Positions 1 to 12,909 of a DNA stretch of 12,909 bases are shown here, piece by piece; the stretch's first letter is position 1; every line of letters starts with the position of its first letter. The notes beneath the pieces are model-generated. The model saw only the letters and a list, made by a program, of their open reading frames with translations. It was not told where the DNA came from and did not search any database. Made by a program: the position numbers and the translations under genes. This DNA comes from a virus (Duplodnaviria > Heunggongvirae > Uroviricota > Caudoviricetes), in IMG/VR virus record IMGVR_UViG_2579779007_000005. The stretch is one strand, 5' to 3'.

Positions 1-163
1 AGTTTGCTCCTGCCATAACGTGAAGAAGCAATGACCTGATGGTCTGTGACTTCCCTACGCTGGCATTATCCAGATCAGGTGATACGGGTATTTCTTACTA
101 ATTTTTGTTATCAGTTGATAATTAATAAGTTTTTAAGCATATAAGAATTAAAAACCTCAAAAA

Positions 164-230
164 TGACCACACAACTGACCACACATTTCGTTGAAGCCCT
201 ACGAACAACGACGAACAATAACAAACAAAA
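164..230. repeat. Tandem direct repeats near the left end: TGACCACACA x2 and 10-bp-phased ACGAACAA x2 with a degenerate third copy
   Basis: TGACCACACA at 164-173 and 176-185. ACGAACAA at 201-208 and 211-218, followed by the degenerate ACAAACAA at 221-228. Confidence 0.4.
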
Positions 231-7559: not shown

Positions 7560-8066
7560 ATGAATTTAAGCGCAATGGCATACCCTGATACTTTCATAAT
7601 TAATGGCGAATCATTCAGAGGTAAAAGAAACGCAAAAGAAAACAAGGTATTAATTCCATATACAAATGAACCGGAAGTAACTATTGGTCAACACATTATC
7701 CAGCGTGTCGGTAAAAACGAGATAAATCTAAAAATTATAGATATGAAGTTGCTTCCCAATGGAACCCTCAGACAGGGAACCAACCATCCAAATATGTTGA
7801 CTCTCTATATTGAAAATATCACGGGAAATGAACATATGACGCCAACTAAAAGTAATACATTTAACATTGGTTCAATTAGTGGTGATCAAGTGCAGATAGG
7901 TGAGCATAACCATATGCTGGTAAACATCAGCATCACTGAACTGGTTGAAAAAGTCGCTAAATCGGGGGATGTACAAGCCAAATCAGTATTAAAGCAGTTA
8001 CTGGAAAACAGTACCGTTGCCAGCATTGTTGGGGCTGGCGCAAGTGCCCTAATAGGCTTACTGTAA
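7560..8066 (+). CDS. AT-rich cargo gene of unknown function (168 aa) with a C-terminal hydrophobic Gly/Ala-rich tail; candidate accessory or defence-type effector
   Basis: ATG 7560 with AAGGA SD at a 6-nt spacer. It is the only substantial plus-strand gene in the island and is visibly more AT-rich than its neighbours. The C-terminus STVASIVGAGASALIGLL looks like a glycine-zipper membrane segment. It is bounded by its own promoter region and a terminator. Confidence 0.7.
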   Translation: MNLSAMAYPDTFIINGESFRGKRNAKENKVLIPYTNEPEVTIGQHIIQRVGKNEINLKIIDMKLLPNGTLRQGTNHPNMLTLYIENITGNEHMTPTKSNTFNIGSISGDQVQIGEHNHMLVNISITELVEKVAKSGDVQAKSVLKQLLENSTVASIVGAGASALIGLL

Positions 8067-9322: not shown

Positions 9323-11140
9323 TTAATTTTTGCTATCGTCATTAGTGACCGATACACATGATGGCATCCAGTCTTCTGATTCCTCCGTCAGTGTCACGTT
9401 TGAACGCAAACCGTGCTTCGTTTTCCGTTTCATATACTCCCTGCCATATTCCGCCATTGCCCCCGGCATATCTTTACCGAAGCGCGTCAGTGTTACAGGT
9501 TTACCAAACCCATGTGCCCTCATATAAGCCAGATAGGCATGATAGAGATACCTGCGTGGGCTGAATGGCACAATTTCAGCATTACCCACTAACAGGCCAT
9601 CACACATTACCGACGCCATGAGATAGCCGCAGAAGTCCACCAGCGAATCCCCCTCTCGCTTTATCGCCAGTGCTTCTTCAGATTTCTGCTGCTCATATAA
9701 CAGGCGTCTGGCTTCGTCCTGGTTAGCAAACCGTGTAAGCAGATGGCGAATCACTACCGCCAGCTCACCTTCTATTTTTTCCGCCAGCATTGGATCACGT
9801 TCGTTCTCCGGTACAACTTCCGAAAAATTGAATATCACCCGACGACGTGAGATCCCCCCGCTGCGGTCACTGAATGACATGGCGTTATTGTTAACCGCCA
9901 GCACTACTGCCGGAATACGCGTTGAGTAGGGGGCTTTGTGTTTCGGGTCAATTGCCACCTTGTCACCGCCTGTAATAGCCTTAATCCCTGCCCCATCACC
10001 AGCGTAGCGGGTCATATCCGGCATGATAATCAGCGAAAAGCCAACCACTAACGCGCGTTCCCTTGCATCTTCCAGCGCCTTCATGCTTGCCGATACTGTG
10101 TTGGCCTTACCCGCCAGCATGGTGCAAATCTCCGCCATCACGCTTTTACCACTTCCCCCTGGACCTGTTACCTCAATGAATAACTGCCAGTCGTACCGGT
10201 TCGCCAGCACCATGAATAATGCAGCCAGTACGCGATCCGCCTTGCGGTCATTCTCAGCCACCGAACGGCGTAACCACTTCCAGAAATTCGGCGCATGTGT
10301 TGCCAGCGTTTCCCCCTCTGCTGGTGGGCTGAAAGGTAATTCACTGGCAATTAACAACCAGTCGTTTTTGTTATGCTCCCGAAAATTACCTGTTCTGGTA
10401 TCAAATACCCCGTTACTGAATCCAATCAGGTTACGGGCTGTATTCCCCATTACAGGCAAACTTAACTTCATGGTATCGACCGCCGATTTAATGGCGTTCT
10501 GCGAATAGCTGATCTCCGCATCAATGAAAATCTGTGCCATAGCTCGCTGTAATTCTTTATCCTGTACTGGCTCCCATACAACGCCGTTGTAATGGTGAAC
10601 AGTGTCAGAGTCAGCATGAATCGCCAGTTCACCGCCATAATGTGCCAGGAGAACTTCGCCGCGTTGACTTGCTCCCATCTGGTTAAGCGCCAGTGATGAA
10701 GCGTTATCGTCTTTTACCCGCTCTTTTTTCTTTACAGGCAGTTCAACTACCTTTTTCTTTTCCGCCTGCTCTGCCCGTTCACGTTCCAGATATTCGCGCC
10801 AGTTCTCCCGTTTCTGGCTGTGCATTCCTTCAGGGTAATAATCAGCATCCCTGACACCTGCCACTGCCAGTTTCTGCCCGATGGTATTAACAAGCCCCGG
10901 ACGCAATAACCCCGCCTGATAGAGACGCACGCGATAGCGTCCGTCCGGTACGATTTGCAGGTTGTCCAGTTCGGCAAGTTGTTGCTCTCCAAGCCAGACA
11001 GGTGGCACGTTATCGCCAGCCAGTCGCCCGTCCTGTTCCTGCCACTGTTTCGCATGTGCCCACGCATCACTACCCGCAAAAATGATGACTTCCGTCATTT
11101 TGTCACGCGGCTGGTGTTTTAAATTTGGCGCTTTTTTCAT
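9323..11140 (-). CDS. P4-family primase/helicase-type replication protein (D5-like NTPase C-terminal domain); 605 aa
   Basis: Walker A GPGGSGKS and a Walker B-like LVVGFSLIIMPD are typical of the phage/plasmid primase P4-family C-terminal domain. The ATG at 11140 has a GGAGAG SD and ATGA coupling to the upstream gene, and is preferred over the GTG at 11155 listed in the ORF track. An iteron array lies immediately 3' of the gene. Confidence 0.85.
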   Translation of the reverse strand: MKKAPNLKHQPRDKMTEVIIFAGSDAWAHAKQWQEQDGRLAGDNVPPVWLGEQQLAELDNLQIVPDGRYRVRLYQAGLLRPGLVNTIGQKLAVAGVRDADYYPEGMHSQKRENWREYLERERAEQAEKKKVVELPVKKKERVKDDNASSLALNQMGASQRGEVLLAHYGGELAIHADSDTVHHYNGVVWEPVQDKELQRAMAQIFIDAEISYSQNAIKSAVDTMKLSLPVMGNTARNLIGFSNGVFDTRTGNFREHNKNDWLLIASELPFSPPAEGETLATHAPNFWKWLRRSVAENDRKADRVLAALFMVLANRYDWQLFIEVTGPGGSGKSVMAEICTMLAGKANTVSASMKALEDARERALVVGFSLIIMPDMTRYAGDGAGIKAITGGDKVAIDPKHKAPYSTRIPAVVLAVNNNAMSFSDRSGGISRRRVIFNFSEVVPENERDPMLAEKIEGELAVVIRHLLTRFANQDEARRLLYEQQKSEEALAIKREGDSLVDFCGYLMASVMCDGLLVGNAEIVPFSPRRYLYHAYLAYMRAHGFGKPVTLTRFGKDMPGAMAEYGREYMKRKTKHGLRSNVTLTEESEDWMPSCVSVTNDDSKN

Positions 11141-11436
11141 TTCTGCTCTCTCCACGCGGCAATCATGTTTTTCAGTTCCTGTAGTTTTTTATCAACATCC
11201 ATACATGACACATGGTTATTTCTGGAAAGCGGGATTTCCCGCCTGAATCTGCTAATAAAGATCTCCACGTTCAGCGAACTATGAAATGAATAGCCATCAC
11301 GAATAAAATACACACGGTCAAACATCAGTTCTTTTACCGTTACTCTGTTACCGTTCTTATCCAGATAAATAGCGCCGGGGATAATTTTGGGGTGTGCATA
11401 ACCGCTGGCAGTCAAGCCAGATAAATATGTTCTCAT
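11137..11436 (-). CDS. Hypothetical protein (99 aa)
   Basis: ATG 11436-11434 lies 6 bp after the upstream stop, with a GGGGA SD-like sequence. Its TGA (11139-11137) overlaps the primase ATG (11140-11138) in an ATGA arrangement. Confidence 0.55.
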   Translation of the reverse strand: MRTYLSGLTASGYAHPKIIPGAIYLDKNGNRVTVKELMFDRVYFIRDGYSFHSSLNVEIFISRFRREIPLSRNNHVSCMDVDKKLQELKNMIAAWREQK

Positions 11437-11442
11437 GATTAT

Positions 11443-11763
11443 TTATCCCCGATTTGAATCAGTATTCGCTTTCTTTATGGCATTTAATGCATCTGTGGCA
11501 TTTTCAATGGTGCACCGTAACGAAATATCAAACTGCCCAAGCATTGCCAGTAACAAACCGATATTACCCATATCAATGCGCATAGCCTTTTCGTCATAGT
11601 CCTCATTTTCTGACGCATGCCACATCAGGCTACCAATTGACGCAATACCCATTGATATATTGTCAGTAGCCCCATCCGCAGCGGAATAAACCTTTTTAGC
11701 AATATCATGCTCACAGTTAAAATGCGGATTAATCAGGTACTGGTAATTTGACATATCAGGCAT
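11443..11763 (-). CDS. Hypothetical protein (106 aa)
   Basis: ATG at 11763 overlaps the stop of the upstream 67-aa gene (translational coupling); stop TAA 11445-11443. No recognisable motif. Confidence 0.55.
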   Translation of the reverse strand: MPDMSNYQYLINPHFNCEHDIAKKVYSAADGATDNISMGIASIGSLMWHASENEDYDEKAMRIDMGNIGLLLAMLGQFDISLRCTIENATDALNAIKKANTDSNRG

Positions 11764-11959
11764 GGCACACCCCCTGACGAATACGGGCGGCGAATACCAT
11801 CACGCAGCCAGCCGGGGATTGCTGGCGTGCTTCCTGTTCGCTGGTGGCCACGATGTGAATCACGCGCGGTTGTGCGGTGCTCAGGGCGATAAAACGCCAG
11901 ATGTATTTATTCAGGTCGTGCGAGTCCCGCCCTTGCGGGTGTGTGGTATGATTTCTCAT
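11756..11959 (-). CDS. Hypothetical small protein (67 aa), first gene of the minus-strand early operon; faintly reminiscent of Icd-like small proteins found near primases in P4-like islands (unverified)
   Basis: ATG 11959-11957 preceded by GAGGT SD; stop TGA 11758-11756 overlaps the ATG of the next gene at 11763. This is the only credible part of the 306-aa track ORF 11756..12676. Confidence 0.45.
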   Translation of the reverse strand: MRNHTTHPQGRDSHDLNKYIWRFIALSTAQPRVIHIVATSEQEARQQSPAGCVMVFAARIRQGVCHA

Positions 11960-12055
11960 AGCTACCTCGATACGCTTTCTATCGTTGGTGGTTAGAAGCC
12001 CGGTTAGTGTTAGCGCACTGCCGGGTTTCGTCGTTTCTGCACCTTGCATCAACAA

Positions 12056-12108
12056 GGTGTTAAACACCAATTTAAGCCTAGGTGTTAAACACGTCAAGTG
12101 TTGAACAC
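12056..12108. promoter_or_regulatory. Three near-palindromic operator sites (GTGTT-N-AACAC) in the divergent intergenic region
   Basis: GTGTTAAACAC at 12057-12067, GTGTTAAACAC at 12082-12092 and GTGTTGAACAC at 12098-12108. The third overlaps the candidate -35 of the RHH promoter. Confidence 0.5.
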
Positions 12109-12129
12109 TTATTTTTTTTCCTGCATACT
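12101..12129 (+). promoter_or_regulatory. Candidate sigma70 promoter of the RHH gene
   Basis: -35 TTGAAC (12101-12106), 17-bp spacer, -10 CATACT (12124-12129); lies about 30 bp upstream of the ATG at 12159. Confidence 0.3.
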
Positions 12130-12158
12130 GCATTTGTTTTTTGTAAGGGGTACACAAC

Positions 12159-12338
12159 ATGGCGACAAAAGCAGTAAACGCAAAATCACAAACAGTTGCG
12201 GCAAGGGTTCCGCATGAAGTTATGAACAATGTTGAGGCGGTAAAAATGCCTGGTGAAAGTACAGGGCAGTTTGTAACAGCAGCATTAAAGCGAGAAGTTG
12301 AATACCGCCAGCGTCGCAAGGCCAAAGAGCAGGAGTAA
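12159..12338 (+). CDS. Small ribbon-helix-helix (Arc/CopG/MetJ-type) DNA-binding protein, putative repressor; 59 aa, below the ORF-track cutoff
   Basis: ATG at 12159 is preceded by SD AAGGGG (8-nt spacer) and an in-frame TAA at 12144-12146; stop TAA 12336-12338. The sequence TVAARVPHEVMNNVEAVKMPGESTGQFVTAALKREVEY fits the RHH pattern (beta-strand with R-V-P, helix A, G-x-S/T turn, helix B). Three palindromic operators lie directly upstream. Confidence 0.5.
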   Translation: MATKAVNAKSQTVAARVPHEVMNNVEAVKMPGESTGQFVTAALKREVEYRQRRKAKEQE

Positions 12339-12395
12339 CCATCACCAGCGCCGTGGTGCGGTGAACTGTGGCGCACAGGGTTACAGGTATCTACG

Positions 12396-12575
12396 ATGAC
12401 TGACAAATCATTAAAGAAATTATCCTCATCCAAGAAAAAACAACGCAAAAATGCGGTAAACGAACATGAACCGGAGAGATTCGCACCATGTGCGTTTATC
12501 CTTGAGAAGTACCTTAAAGAGTATTCTAGGAAAATACGCTCATTGCAGGCATGGCAGCGAATCGAGCCAGACTGA
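12396..12575 (+). CDS. Hypothetical small basic protein (59 aa), possibly co-transcribed with the RHH gene
   Basis: ATG at 12396 with only a weak AGG SD; stop TGA 12573-12575. It lies between the RHH gene and a plus-strand terminator at 12640-12667. Lys/Ser-rich N-terminus; no recognisable domain. Confidence 0.25.
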   Translation: MTDKSLKKLSSSKKKQRKNAVNEHEPERFAPCAFILEKYLKEYSRKIRSLQAWQRIEPD

Positions 12576-12639
12576 TAGCATTGCCCACCAGCCAACAACC
12601 TGGTATTCTGGATATGCTCAAGTTTAGTGTTATGCCACT

Positions 12640-12667
12640 GGCGACCGCCCTTGGTCGCCTTTGTTTT
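12640..12667 (+). terminator. Rho-independent terminator for the plus-strand RHH transcript
   Basis: Stem GGCGACC (12640-12646), loop GCCCTT, stem GGTCGCC (12653-12659), followed by TTTGTTTT. The minus strand has no T-run after the same hairpin, so it is probably unidirectional. Confidence 0.5.
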
Positions 12668-12684
12668 ATGTGTCATAGCCCCCC

Positions 12685-12909
12685 CTACGCTGCCTTACCT
12701 GAATTAACGCGGTCACGGCTTTGCACCCAGTCCATAACTTCGGAAAGCAACCAGCCTACAGAACGCCCCCCAAGATTACGGCGAGACGGAAAGCCCCCTT
12801 TCTTCTCCAGTTCGTAGCGTGTAGTACGGCTGACGCCTGTTAACTTACGACATTCATCCTCACGAATTACGCGATCTGTTAGTGATTGAAATTGTGTATT
12901 TTGATTCAT
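12685..12909 (-). CDS. alpA: AlpA-family (Xis-like winged-helix) transcriptional regulator; its ATG is the last 3 bases of the window, so the N-terminus could extend beyond the edge
   Basis: 74-aa ORF ending at TAG 12685-12687. The segment LTGVSRTTRYELEKKGGFP...GGRSVGWLLSEVMDWV matches the HTH plus Trp-containing wing pattern of prophage AlpA/Xis-like regulators. It sits at the head of the replication genes, as in PICI-type islands. Confidence 0.7.
   Translation of the reverse strand: MNQNTQFQSLTDRVIREDECRKLTGVSRTTRYELEKKGGFPSRRNLGGRSVGWLLSEVMDWVQSRDRVNSGKAA

What the first reader, a model, noticed from the sequence alone, without database searches (positions are those of the whole stretch)
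11137..11959. Three translationally coupled small genes of unknown function between the switch and the primase
Genes of 67, 106 and 99 aa are linked by overlapping stop/start codons (11763/11756 and 11140/11137) and sit exactly where satellites usually encode derepression, helper-sensing or helper-interference factors. None has a motif I can assign.
Basis: inference. Interest (0 to 1): 0.4.

Follow-up and report, generated by a model that had tools for sequence, protein, structure and literature searches.

The report
Small early genes of phage satellite
The three small genes are real, conserved parts of the early (replication) operon of a capsid-forming phage satellite of E. coli; two belong to known families, so the genes are fairly ordinary, but an apparently undescribed antisense small RNA sits over the start of the first one.

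Summary
Genes of 67, 106 and 99 aa lie on the minus strand at 11959-11756, 11763-11443 and 11436-11137. Their junctions are an 8-nt overlap, a 6-nt gap, and a 4-nt ATGA overlap with the primase. RefSeq annotates the same genes.

"No motif" is wrong for two of them. Gene 1 is an Icd-like protein (NF033153), the same family as P4 Kil. Gene 3 is a DUF4222 protein, 31-35% identical to RgdR/ECs1581 and c1493, which occupy the same position in EcCIEDL933 and EcCICFT073. Gene 2 belongs to an unnamed Enterobacterales family of about 100 aa, predicted to form a helical hairpin.

The layout alpA, long ORF/Icd-like, small genes, primase mirrors the P4 left operon.

Two further features emerged:
- The 67-aa gene is the 3' end of a maintained long ORF (306 codons here). 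It is open for at least 100 codons in 30 of 37 loci, against 1 and 0 in the other two frames.
- A roughly 78-nt structured RNA is encoded antisense across the Icd-like start (11959-12036, plus strand). It is found in 50 of 76 related loci, has strong covariation and an invariant -10 element.

Likely mechanism: a translational gate at the Icd-like start controls the coupled downstream genes. The biochemical roles of genes 2 and 3 remain inferred.

The parts
11756..11959 (-). Gene 1: Icd-like / P4 Kil-family ORF (67 aa), the first short ORF of the early operon.
   Evidence: NF033153 at 5.3e-20. phrog_6196 at 1e-43. 94% identical to the Icd-like protein of EcCICFT073. P4 Kil hits the same HMM at 7.8e-21.
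11443..11763 (-). Gene 2: 106-aa protein of an unnamed Enterobacterales satellite family, predicted to be a two-helix hairpin.
11137..11436 (-). Gene 3: DUF4222 protein (99 aa), the positional counterpart of RgdR/ECs1581 and c1493. Its stop overlaps the primase ATG.
   Evidence: PF13973 at 7.4e-17. 31% identical to RgdR and 35% to c1493. The same ATGA overlap with the primase occurs in Sakai, CFT073, L005, L008 and L012.
9323..11140 (-). P4-alpha-type primase/helicase, the last gene of the coupled chain (ATG at 11140).
   Evidence: D5_N, DUF5906, Pox_D5 and TIGR01613 hits. The PGAP start matches.
11756..12676 (-). Long ORF (306 codons) whose last 67 codons are gene 1. It starts 8 nt after the alpA stop (TAGGGGGGGCTATG) and is analogous to P4 eta with nested kil.
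   Evidence: The in-frame upstream region is open for at least 100 codons in 30 of 37 loci, against 1/37 and 0/37 for the other frames. The ORF is 428 codons in EcCICFT073. Non-overlapped parts show no third-position bias.
11959..12036 (+). Predicted cis-antisense small RNA of about 78 nt covering the Shine-Dalgarno and start region of gene 1. It has a 5' stem-loop and a 3' GC hairpin followed by a U-rich tail.
   Evidence: Sub-threshold SymR hit. Covariance model hit at 87.7 bits. Minimum free energy -36.5 kcal/mol, z -4.8. Covariation and G-U asymmetry support this strand.
11944..11952 (+). Extended -10-like promoter element (TGgTATGAT) for the antisense RNA, inside the first codons of gene 1.
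   Evidence: Read from the sequence. T-12, A-11 and T-7 are invariant in 46 of 46 distinct loci.
12058..12109 (.). Three palindromic operator-like sites, GTGTTAAACAC (twice) and GTGTTGAACAC, in the divergent control region.
   Evidence: Read from the sequence. Not tested further.
12069..12097 (-). Sigma-70-like promoter (TTGACG, 17 nt, TAAATT) that could drive the short Icd-like transcript.
   Evidence: Consensus scan. This is a consensus match only.
12159..12338 (+). Divergent YlcI/YnfO-family gene (59 aa, ribbon-helix-helix-like), a candidate repressor. It lies antisense to the long ORF.
   Evidence: NF041551 at 2.1e-16. Substitutions against CFT073 fit selection on this gene rather than on the long ORF.
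12396..12575 (+). Second plus-strand small gene (59 aa), conserved in Sakai Sp7 and CFT073.
   Evidence: phrog_21027 at 5e-30. Homologues appear.
12685..12909 (-). alpA (74 aa), the first gene of the long transcript.
   Evidence: PF05930 at 4.8e-16.

Best explanation
The three ORFs are the promoter-proximal small genes of the early (replication) operon of a capsid-forming PICI. The operon is built like the P4 left operon (vis, eta/kil, epsilon, ..., alpha).

Gene 1 encodes an Icd/Kil-family peptide and also acts as the operon's gate. Its ribosome-binding region is covered by a constitutively made cis-antisense small RNA. Genes 2 and 3 and the primase are chained to it by stop/start overlaps or near-abutment. 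Blocking initiation at gene 1 should therefore silence the whole replication module in the resident state.

After a helper phage induces alpA, transcription from upstream brings ribosomes through the long ORF that starts 8 nt after alpA. These ribosomes read through the blocked site. That yields an Icd-like C-terminus, re-initiation on genes 2 and 3 and the primase, and island replication.

The Icd-like product probably arrests host division or is toxic. Gene 3 (RgdR family, a small beta-barrel plus a helix) probably modulates host or island transcription, or assists the primase. Gene 2 (helical hairpin) probably binds a protein partner in the way antirepressors do at this position.

Shown here: gene families, synteny, conserved junctions, the maintained long ORF, and the conserved RNA structure and -10 element.
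Inferred: that the RNA is made and represses, that coupling is obligatory, and every biochemical activity.
For: Families and synteny:
- RefSeq gives the same gene calls.
- Sakai Sp7 (EcCIEDL933) and EcCICFT073 have the same layout.
- P4 Kil is in the Icd-like family, and kil overlaps epsilon by the same 8 nt.
- P4 Kil also matches the icd genes of N15 and PY54.

Coupling:
- 33 of 38 loci have the -8 junction with a Shine-Dalgarno sequence.

Long ORF:
- It is maintained in 30 of 37 loci, against 1 and 0 in the control frames.
- Its sequence is not under protein-level selection. This fits a requirement for ribosome transit, as reported for P4 eta (PMC10111431).

Antisense RNA:
- It is found in 50 of 76 loci, always opposite the operon, and also in CFT073.
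- 92-94% of cells are paired, and 14-17 of 27 pairs show compensatory changes; 0 of 500 shuffles reach this.
- The antisense strand folds at -35.3 kcal/mol against -21.8 for the sense strand, in 20 of 20 sequences, with many G-U pairs.
- The TAnnnT element is invariant in 46 of 46 loci, including a synonymous codon position.

Experimental precedents:
- RgdR has a pleiotropic regulatory phenotype.
Against: - No expression data were available. The small RNA, its promoter and its terminator are predictions.
- The U-tail is interrupted (UUUCGUCGUUUCU) and failed the simple terminator scan.
- The Rfam SymR match is below threshold (32.8 bits against 61).
- The gene 2 to gene 3 junction is a 6-nt gap, so coupling there is weaker.
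- A protein repressor (YlcI/YnfO family) and operator-like palindromes are also present. They could be the main or only switch.
- The RgdR RGD motif is PGA here.
- The DUF4222 model is of low confidence (pLDDT 58).
- Gene 2 shows no similarity to P4 epsilon.
- In Xenorhabdus and Photorhabdus the Icd-like ORF shrinks to 41 codons. The peptide's own activity may therefore be dispensable.
Confidence: 0.6

Rival explanations
1. The module is mainly an abortive-infection or superinfection-exclusion device. A phage protein triggers expression, and the Icd-like peptide, with the linked small proteins and primase, kills or arrests the cell to block competing phages.
For: In ECOR61 a prophage locus of six linked genes causes cell death when a T7-group accessory protein is expressed. 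[quoted passage not shown] Removing the Icd-like gene abolishes the effect. P4 Kil is reported to function in cell killing (PMC10111431).
Against: I could not show that the ECOR61 locus is homologous to this one. PADLOC models give no hit. The module is a fixed part of the replication operon in every satellite examined, which fits a life-cycle role. The two readings are compatible.
Confidence: 0.2
2. Genes 2 and 3 are helper-directed factors (antirepressor, helper-sensing or interference proteins). Gene 1 is only their leader.
For: The gene directly coupled to kil or icd is an antirepressor in P4 (epsilon) and, from my knowledge, in P1 and N15. The small genes between the Icd-like gene and the primase are mosaic and number 2 to 5, as expected for partner-specific factors. 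Gene 2 is a helical hairpin typical of small binding proteins.
Against: Gene 2 shows no sequence or profile similarity to epsilon or to the small genes of Sakai or KppS-Ant. DUF4222 is conserved next to the primase regardless of the capsid module or likely helper, which argues for a general role. RgdR acts on host promoters without a helper.
Confidence: 0.3
3. Gene 3, and perhaps gene 2, is host-directed cargo: a regulator of host virulence and motility genes kept because it benefits the bacterium, like RgdR.
For: RgdR (ECs1581) activates LEE1 and type III secretion, represses motility and affects colonisation. c1493 of CFT073 does the same (PMC3378721).
Against: The window protein is only 31-35% identical and lacks the RGD residues that matter for type III secretion activation. 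The family occurs in many strains and genera without LEE. Its invariable ATGA coupling to the primase suggests an island function, with the host effects as a side-product.
Confidence: 0.15
4. The conserved RNA structure belongs to the sense mRNA leader (a cis-acting element for a protein or for attenuation), not to an antisense RNA.
For: The element lies in the 5' leader of the Icd-like ORF. In one subgroup the Shine-Dalgarno sequence sits in the loop of the second hairpin.
Against: All mismatches in the sense orientation are A-C or C-A, which are G-U pairs on the other strand. The antisense fold is more stable in 20 of 20 sequences. An invariant -10 element and a U-rich tail flank the element on the antisense strand.
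Confidence: 0.1

Closest known systems
Phage P4 left operon (vis, eta with nested kil, CI RNA, epsilon, orf151, orf106, alpha)
   Same: The gene order matches: an AlpA/Vis homologue, a long ORF ending in an Icd/Kil-family peptide, small coupled genes, then an alpha-type primase. The kil-to-next-gene overlap of 8 nt is identical in type. Kil and gene 1 hit the same NCBIfam model.
   Different: P4 controls kil through a same-strand, processed CI RNA (Rfam C4 and isrK). Neither is present here. Here there is a cis-antisense RNA plus divergent protein genes. Epsilon, orf151 and orf106 have no homologues in the window.
EcCIEDL933 (CP-933C / OI-51 / Sakai Sp7) and EcCICFT073, the model cf-PICI and PICI of E. 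coli
   Same: The module is the same: alpA, two opposite-strand small genes, Icd-like gene, small genes, DUF4222 gene overlapping the primase. The Icd-like protein is 94% identical to that of CFT073. The antisense RNA model hits both islands.
   Different: Those islands carry three or four different small genes where the window has one (gene 2). The window's DUF4222 protein is only 31-35% identical. The long ORF is split in Sakai but is 428 codons in CFT073.
RgdR (ECs1581), prophage regulator of type III secretion
   Same: Both are 99 aa with a DUF4222 domain, share the position and the ATGA overlap with the primase, and align end to end.
   Different: Identity is 31%, and residues 20-22 are PGA instead of RGD. 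No LEE context is known for the window. Function was not tested.
P1 immI (c4-icd-ant) and N15 / PY54 icd anti-immunity operons
   Same: An Icd-family leader ORF is controlled by an antisense RNA at its translation start, with downstream genes depending on its translation. P4 Kil matches N15 gp32 and PY54 icd. The mechanism is from my knowledge of Riedel 1993 and Ravin 1999.
   Different: Those RNAs are trans-acting, same-strand and processed. The downstream genes there are antirepressors of the phage's own repressor. P1 Icd itself was not compared here.
SymR-SymE type I toxin-antitoxin pair
   Same: SymR is a roughly 77-nt cis-antisense RNA starting at the start codon of a toxic protein gene. 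It has a two-hairpin architecture and a similar loop sequence, GUGUUxGCGCAC.
   Different: The score is 32.8 bits against a gathering score of 61, so this is not a member by Rfam's criterion. SymE, from my knowledge an AbrB-fold protein, has no known relation to Icd-like peptides; the two were not compared here.

Membership tests
Icd-like protein family (NCBIfam NF033153; includes P4 Kil) | Match to the family HMM above the curated cut-off | tested here: met
   71.2 bits against a cut-off of 25, residues 19-62. P4 Kil scores 73.9 bits.
Icd-like protein family (NCBIfam NF033153; includes P4 Kil) | First translated short ORF of an early or anti-immunity operon, with the next gene coupled to its stop | tested here: met
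   8-nt overlap with gene 2. The same junction occurs in 33 of 38 loci and in P4.
Icd-like protein family (NCBIfam NF033153; includes P4 Kil) | Inhibition of cell division, or killing, when expressed | not testable with these tools
   Known for P1 Icd and P4 Kil from the literature (PMC10111431 and my knowledge). Needs an expression experiment.
P4 eta/kil nested-gene arrangement | The short ORF is the in-frame 3' end of a long ORF that begins just after the alpA/vis homologue | tested here: met
   A 306-codon ORF starts 8 nt after the alpA stop. It is maintained in 30 of 37 loci, against 1 and 0 in the control frames.
P4 eta/kil nested-gene arrangement | Translation of the long ORF prevents termination or overrides immunity | not testable with these tools
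   Only indirect support: the ORF is kept open without protein-level selection.
C4 / CI antisense RNA (Rfam RF01695) | Covariance-model match upstream of the icd/kil ORF on the same strand | tested here: not met
   No hit in the window at E up to 1. Present in P4 and the Erwinia locus L018.
SymR antitoxin RNA (Rfam RF01809) | Score at or above the gathering threshold | tested here: not met
   32.8 bits against 61, E 0.0049. The architecture is similar.
DUF4222 / RgdR family (Pfam PF13973) | Match to the Pfam model above the gathering score | tested here: met
   61.1 bits against 27, residues 16-67.
DUF4222 / RgdR family (Pfam PF13973) | RGD motif at residues 20-22, shown to matter for type III secretion activation | tested here: not met
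   The window has PGA at the aligned positions. The motif's role is described in PMC3378721.
DUF4222 / RgdR family (Pfam PF13973) | Activates LEE1 and represses motility | not testable with these tools
   Needs reporter assays.
P4 epsilon-type or Ant-type antirepressor (considered for gene 2) | Sequence or profile similarity to a known antirepressor | tested here: not met
   hhalign probability is 0.1% against P4 epsilon. There are no Pfam, NCBIfam or PADLOC hits.
P4 epsilon-type or Ant-type antirepressor (considered for gene 2) | Binds and inactivates a helper-phage repressor | not testable with these tools
   Only the position supports this.
Capsid-forming PICI (cf-PICI) | alpA and a P4-type primase together with the island's own capsid, protease, portal, connector, TerS and TerL genes, and no tail or lysis genes | tested here: met
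   Pfam hits. The integrase lies outside the window but is present in the identical locus L001.

The most novel reading that the evidence does not exclude
PICI-type satellites of Enterobacterales and Orbales, including the model islands EcCICFT073 and EcCIEDL933, keep their replication operon shut with a previously undescribed, SymR-like cis-antisense small RNA. This RNA masks the start of an Icd/Kil-family toxic leader ORF. The helper-induced alpA transcript escapes the block because ribosomes arrive through a long ORF maintained only for that purpose. This would be the missing 'immunity' mechanism of Gram-negative PICIs, and a type I toxin-antitoxin-like gate built into a satellite life cycle.
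Probability: 0.4. Interest if true: 0.7.

Novelty: new member of a known kind. Interest (0 to 1): 0.45.

Why it matters
As stated, the finding concerns ordinary members of known or annotated families, in a module that also exists in the two best-studied E. coli PICIs.

Its value is that it ties three literatures together: P4 eta/kil immunity, the EHEC regulator RgdR, and PICI biology. It also exposes a testable control point.

How Gram-negative PICIs stay silent and how alpA induction turns on replication is not understood. The following give precise mutations to test in EcCICFT073 or EcCIEDL933:
- a conserved antisense RNA over the Icd-like start;
- a long ORF kept open without protein-level selection;
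- a stereotyped Shine-Dalgarno/ATG/stop coupling cassette.

The analysis also suggests that the host-virulence effects of RgdR are a side-effect of a satellite replication-operon protein.

Tried and rejected
- **Defence models.** PADLOC gave no hit for any of the small proteins.
- **Gene 2 homology.** Single-sequence searches found only close relatives: 19 clusters and 18 hits among 1.84 billion representatives.
- **Gene 2 versus other small genes.** Profile comparisons with P4 epsilon, Sakai ECs1580 and the 72-aa gene of KppS-Ant were negative.
- **P4-type immunity RNA.** I looked for C4 and isrK in the window and found none.
- **Long ORF N-terminus.** I first took the conserved 'KTKA..GR' N-terminus as protein conservation. 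I rejected this because it is the complement of the plus-strand terminator.
- **Long ORF selection.** Codon-position counts show no protein-level selection on the long ORF.
- **Experimental support for the small RNA.** The Hfq-CRAC supplement for Sakai contained nothing for this locus. Literature searches for a PICI antisense RNA found nothing.
- **P4 paper.** Forti 1999 on eta/kil is not held, so its content is cited through PMC10111431 and my own knowledge.
Full report
**Observation.** They are followed by a 605-aa primase whose ATG is at 11140. Gene 1 and gene 2 overlap by 8 nt (ATGCCTGA). Gene 3 and the primase overlap by 4 nt (ATGA). Gene 2 and gene 3 are separated by 6 nt, so that junction is close but not overlapping. 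Each start has a purine-rich Shine-Dalgarno-like sequence. RefSeq annotates the same three CDSs in identical loci. The 901-bp segment matches 1460 of 5426 complete E. coli genomes, and 445 of these cover at least 80% of it. The simple scan finds no promoter-like or terminator-like site on the minus strand inside the three genes.

**Context.** The window is a capsid-forming PICI. It carries alpA, a P4-alpha-type primase and SSB. It also has its own major capsid, prohead protease, portal, gp6-like connector, HNH, TerS and TerL genes, and no tail or lysis genes. In an identical ST131 locus the module is preceded by an integrase and a DUF6387 gene.

**Gene 1.**
- It matches NCBIfam NF033153, 'host cell division inhibitor Icd-like', at 71 bits against a cut-off of 25.
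- The PHROG label 'transcriptional repressor' probably derives from the obsolete protein annotation of P4 cI, which RefSeq still labels 'transcriptional repressor'. The C-terminal part of that P4 ORF hits the same model at 7.8e-21.
- The last 65 codons of that ORF are, from my knowledge of Forti 1999, the known Kil peptide, nested in the longer eta ORF (summarised in PMC10111431).
- P4 Kil in turn matches the icd genes of N15 and PY54.
- The window protein is 94% identical to the Icd-like protein of EcCICFT073.

**Gene 3.**
- It carries DUF4222 (PF13973, 61 bits against 27).
- The one studied member is RgdR (ECs1581) of O-island 51 / CP-933C / Sp7, which is the cf-PICI EcCIEDL933. RgdR is a 99-aa protein that activates LEE1 and type III secretion, represses motility and binds DNA non-specifically (PMC3378721).
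- In Sakai and in CFT073 (c1493) this gene sits immediately upstream of the primase with the same ATGA overlap.
- The window protein aligns end to end at 31% and 35% identity. It has PGA where RgdR has the functionally important RGD.

**Gene 2.**
- It has no Pfam, NCBIfam or PADLOC match and only an unannotated PHROG.
- Single-sequence searches find only close relatives.
- A profile built from homologues that I found upstream of primases in other genera retrieves 197 clusters of about 100 aa. They come from Klebsiella, Citrobacter, Proteus, Morganella, Xenorhabdus, Photorhabdus, Yersinia and others, and all are 'hypothetical'.
- AF2 with that alignment gives a two-helix hairpin (pLDDT 79).
- Fold matches are generic.
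- It is unrelated to P4 epsilon or to the small genes at the same place in Sakai or KppS-Ant.

**Comparative anatomy.**
- I anchored 72 loci on the primase in one genome per species and walked upstream.
- The Icd-like ORF is the constant first member. Next come 2 to 5 small genes in mosaic combinations, and then the primase.
- The junction after the Icd-like ORF is an 8-nt overlap in 33 of 38 loci, and in P4.
- Across 74 distinct -8 junctions the sequence approximates CAGGAGGTGnnCCATGnnTGA. This is a Shine-Dalgarno sequence, a start and a stop packed together, and it explains the recurrent '..EV.HA' C-termini.
- Full-length DUF4222 genes always abut the primase with ATGA.

**The 67-aa gene is nested.**
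- Its frame is open upstream to an ATG at 12676, which lies 8 nt after the alpA stop (TAGGGGGGGCTATG). This gives a 306-codon ORF that runs antisense to the two plus-strand genes.
- In 37 loci the Icd-like frame is open upstream for a median of 186 codons, and for at least 100 codons in 30 loci. The other two frames have medians of 5 and 9 codons, with 1 and 0 loci reaching 100.
- The ORF is 428 codons in EcCICFT073 and split in Sakai.
- Substitutions between the window and CFT073 show no third-position bias in the parts not overlapped by other genes (39, 37 and 33 at positions 3, 1 and 2). Within the YlcI/YnfO overlap they fit selection on that gene.
- An ORF kept open without selection on its product is what the P4 eta precedent predicts. 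There, ribosome transit, not the protein, prevents termination.

**An antisense RNA.**
- An Rfam scan gave a sub-threshold SymR match at 11960-12032 on the plus strand.
- This roughly 80-nt segment, and little else of the control region, is conserved at DNA level in Serratia, Klebsiella, Raoultella, Proteus, Xenorhabdus and Photorhabdus loci.
- The sequences fold into one two-domain structure only in the antisense orientation. Mean energy is -35.3 against -21.8 kcal/mol, the antisense is more stable in 20 of 20, and it has 3-8 G-U pairs against 0-3.
- Every 'broken' pair in the sense orientation is A-C.
- On a MAFFT alignment, 93.8% of cells pair and 14 of 27 pairs show compensatory changes; none of 500 shuffles reach this, and slid controls pair at 30-52%.
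- A covariance model finds the element in 50 of 76 sources, always opposite the operon. These include Sakai Sp7, Gilliamella and Frischella. It also finds the element in EcCICFT073, but not in true P4-likes, and P4 itself and the Erwinia locus carry Rfam C4 and isrK instead.
- Upstream, T-12, A-11 and T-7 are invariant in 46 of 46 distinct loci. A-11 falls on a synonymous third position of a His, Tyr or Ser codon of the Icd-like ORF. The window has an extended -10, TGgTATGAT, at 11944-11952.
- The Icd-like ATG lies at a fixed offset from the RNA's 5' end. The window RNA folds at -36.5 kcal/mol, z -4.8.
- I found no description of it in the literature searched.

**Mechanism proposed.**
- In the resident island, the antisense RNA masks the Shine-Dalgarno and AUG of the Icd-like ORF. 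The YlcI/YnfO-family protein may also act at three GTGTTnAACAC palindromes (12058-12109).
- Because genes 2 and 3 and the primase are chained to that ORF, the replication module stays off.
- Helper-induced alpA transcription enters the long ORF. Its ribosomes read through the masked site and re-initiate downstream.
- Shown: homologies, synteny, junction conservation, the maintained ORF, RNA structure and promoter conservation.
- Inferred: expression of the RNA, repression, obligatory coupling, toxicity of the peptide, and the activities of genes 2 and 3.

**Comparison and novelty.** The genes are new members of known kinds: Icd/Kil, DUF4222/RgdR and an unnamed PHROG. They sit in a module shared with EcCICFT073 and EcCIEDL933. 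The control logic resembles P1 c4-icd-ant, N15 cA-icd-antA and P4 CI-kil-epsilon. It differs in using a cis-encoded, SymR-like RNA. That variant, if real, is the interesting part.

Noticed in passing
window 11959-12036 (+); -10 element at 11944-11952: A conserved, structured RNA of about 78 nt lies antisense to the start region of the Icd-like ORF. It is present in 50 of 76 related loci, including EcCICFT073 and Sakai Sp7, has strong covariation and an invariant TAnnnT upstream. Rfam gives only a sub-threshold SymR match.
   Followed up: yes
window 11756-12676 (-): The Icd-like gene is the 3' end of a 306-codon ORF that starts 8 nt after alpA and runs antisense to two plus-strand genes. The frame is kept open across genera, but its sequence shows no protein-level selection.
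   Followed up: yes
window 12058-12068, 12083-12093, 12099-12109: Three palindromic sites (GTGTTAAACAC twice, GTGTTGAACAC once) lie between the Icd-like gene and the YlcI/YnfO-family gene and overlap a TTGACG-17-TAAATT promoter-like site. They are probably operators of the switch.
   Followed up: no
window 35-169 (-): Sub-threshold TPP riboswitch match (34 bits against 54). The 3' half is intact, while the 5' half is divergent or interrupted by a 48-nt insertion. In the identical locus L001, thiM is the nearest chromosomal gene on the corresponding side of the island, so the attachment site may lie in or beside the riboswitch.
   Followed up: no
window 7560-8066 (+): A 168-aa ORF on the opposite strand between the capsid and SSB genes has no Pfam or PADLOC hit. 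Satellites often carry accessory or defence cargo at such a place.
   Followed up: partly
related loci L005-L066; window 11756-11790: The small genes of the operon are joined by a stereotyped cassette, roughly CAGGAGGTGnnCCATGnnTGA. Unrelated proteins therefore share '..EV.HA' C-termini. The cassette may also serve as a recombination joint for the mosaic gene sets.
   Followed up: partly
P0113; L054 5875-7287: A 167-aa protein cluster fuses a gene-2-like N-terminus to a short DUF4222 domain. In Photorhabdus temperata, a gene-2-like N-terminus is fused to a truncated primase. In the window, genes 2 and 3 are in the same frame, separated by one stop and two codons.
   Followed up: no
Xenorhabdus and Photorhabdus loci, e.g. 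L037, L024, L041: The Icd-like ORF is reduced to 41 codons. It keeps the conserved N-terminus (which overlaps the antisense promoter) and the coupling cassette but loses the family core. This suggests the leader role can outlive the peptide's own activity.
   Followed up: partly
L077 4707-4940 (EcCICFT073): The 77-aa gene just upstream of c1493 starts MRDIYH, like the conserved N-terminus of the gene 2 family. It may be a short, distant relative.
   Followed up: no
L077 2767-3130 (EcCICFT073 long ORF, N-terminal part): The N-terminal extension of the CFT073 long ORF contains a stretch (..NMSIISESGFYKLIKTK..) reminiscent of Bro-N/KilA-N-type domains. This agrees with the 'Bro zone' description in PMC10111431. 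It was not tested with a profile.
   Followed up: no
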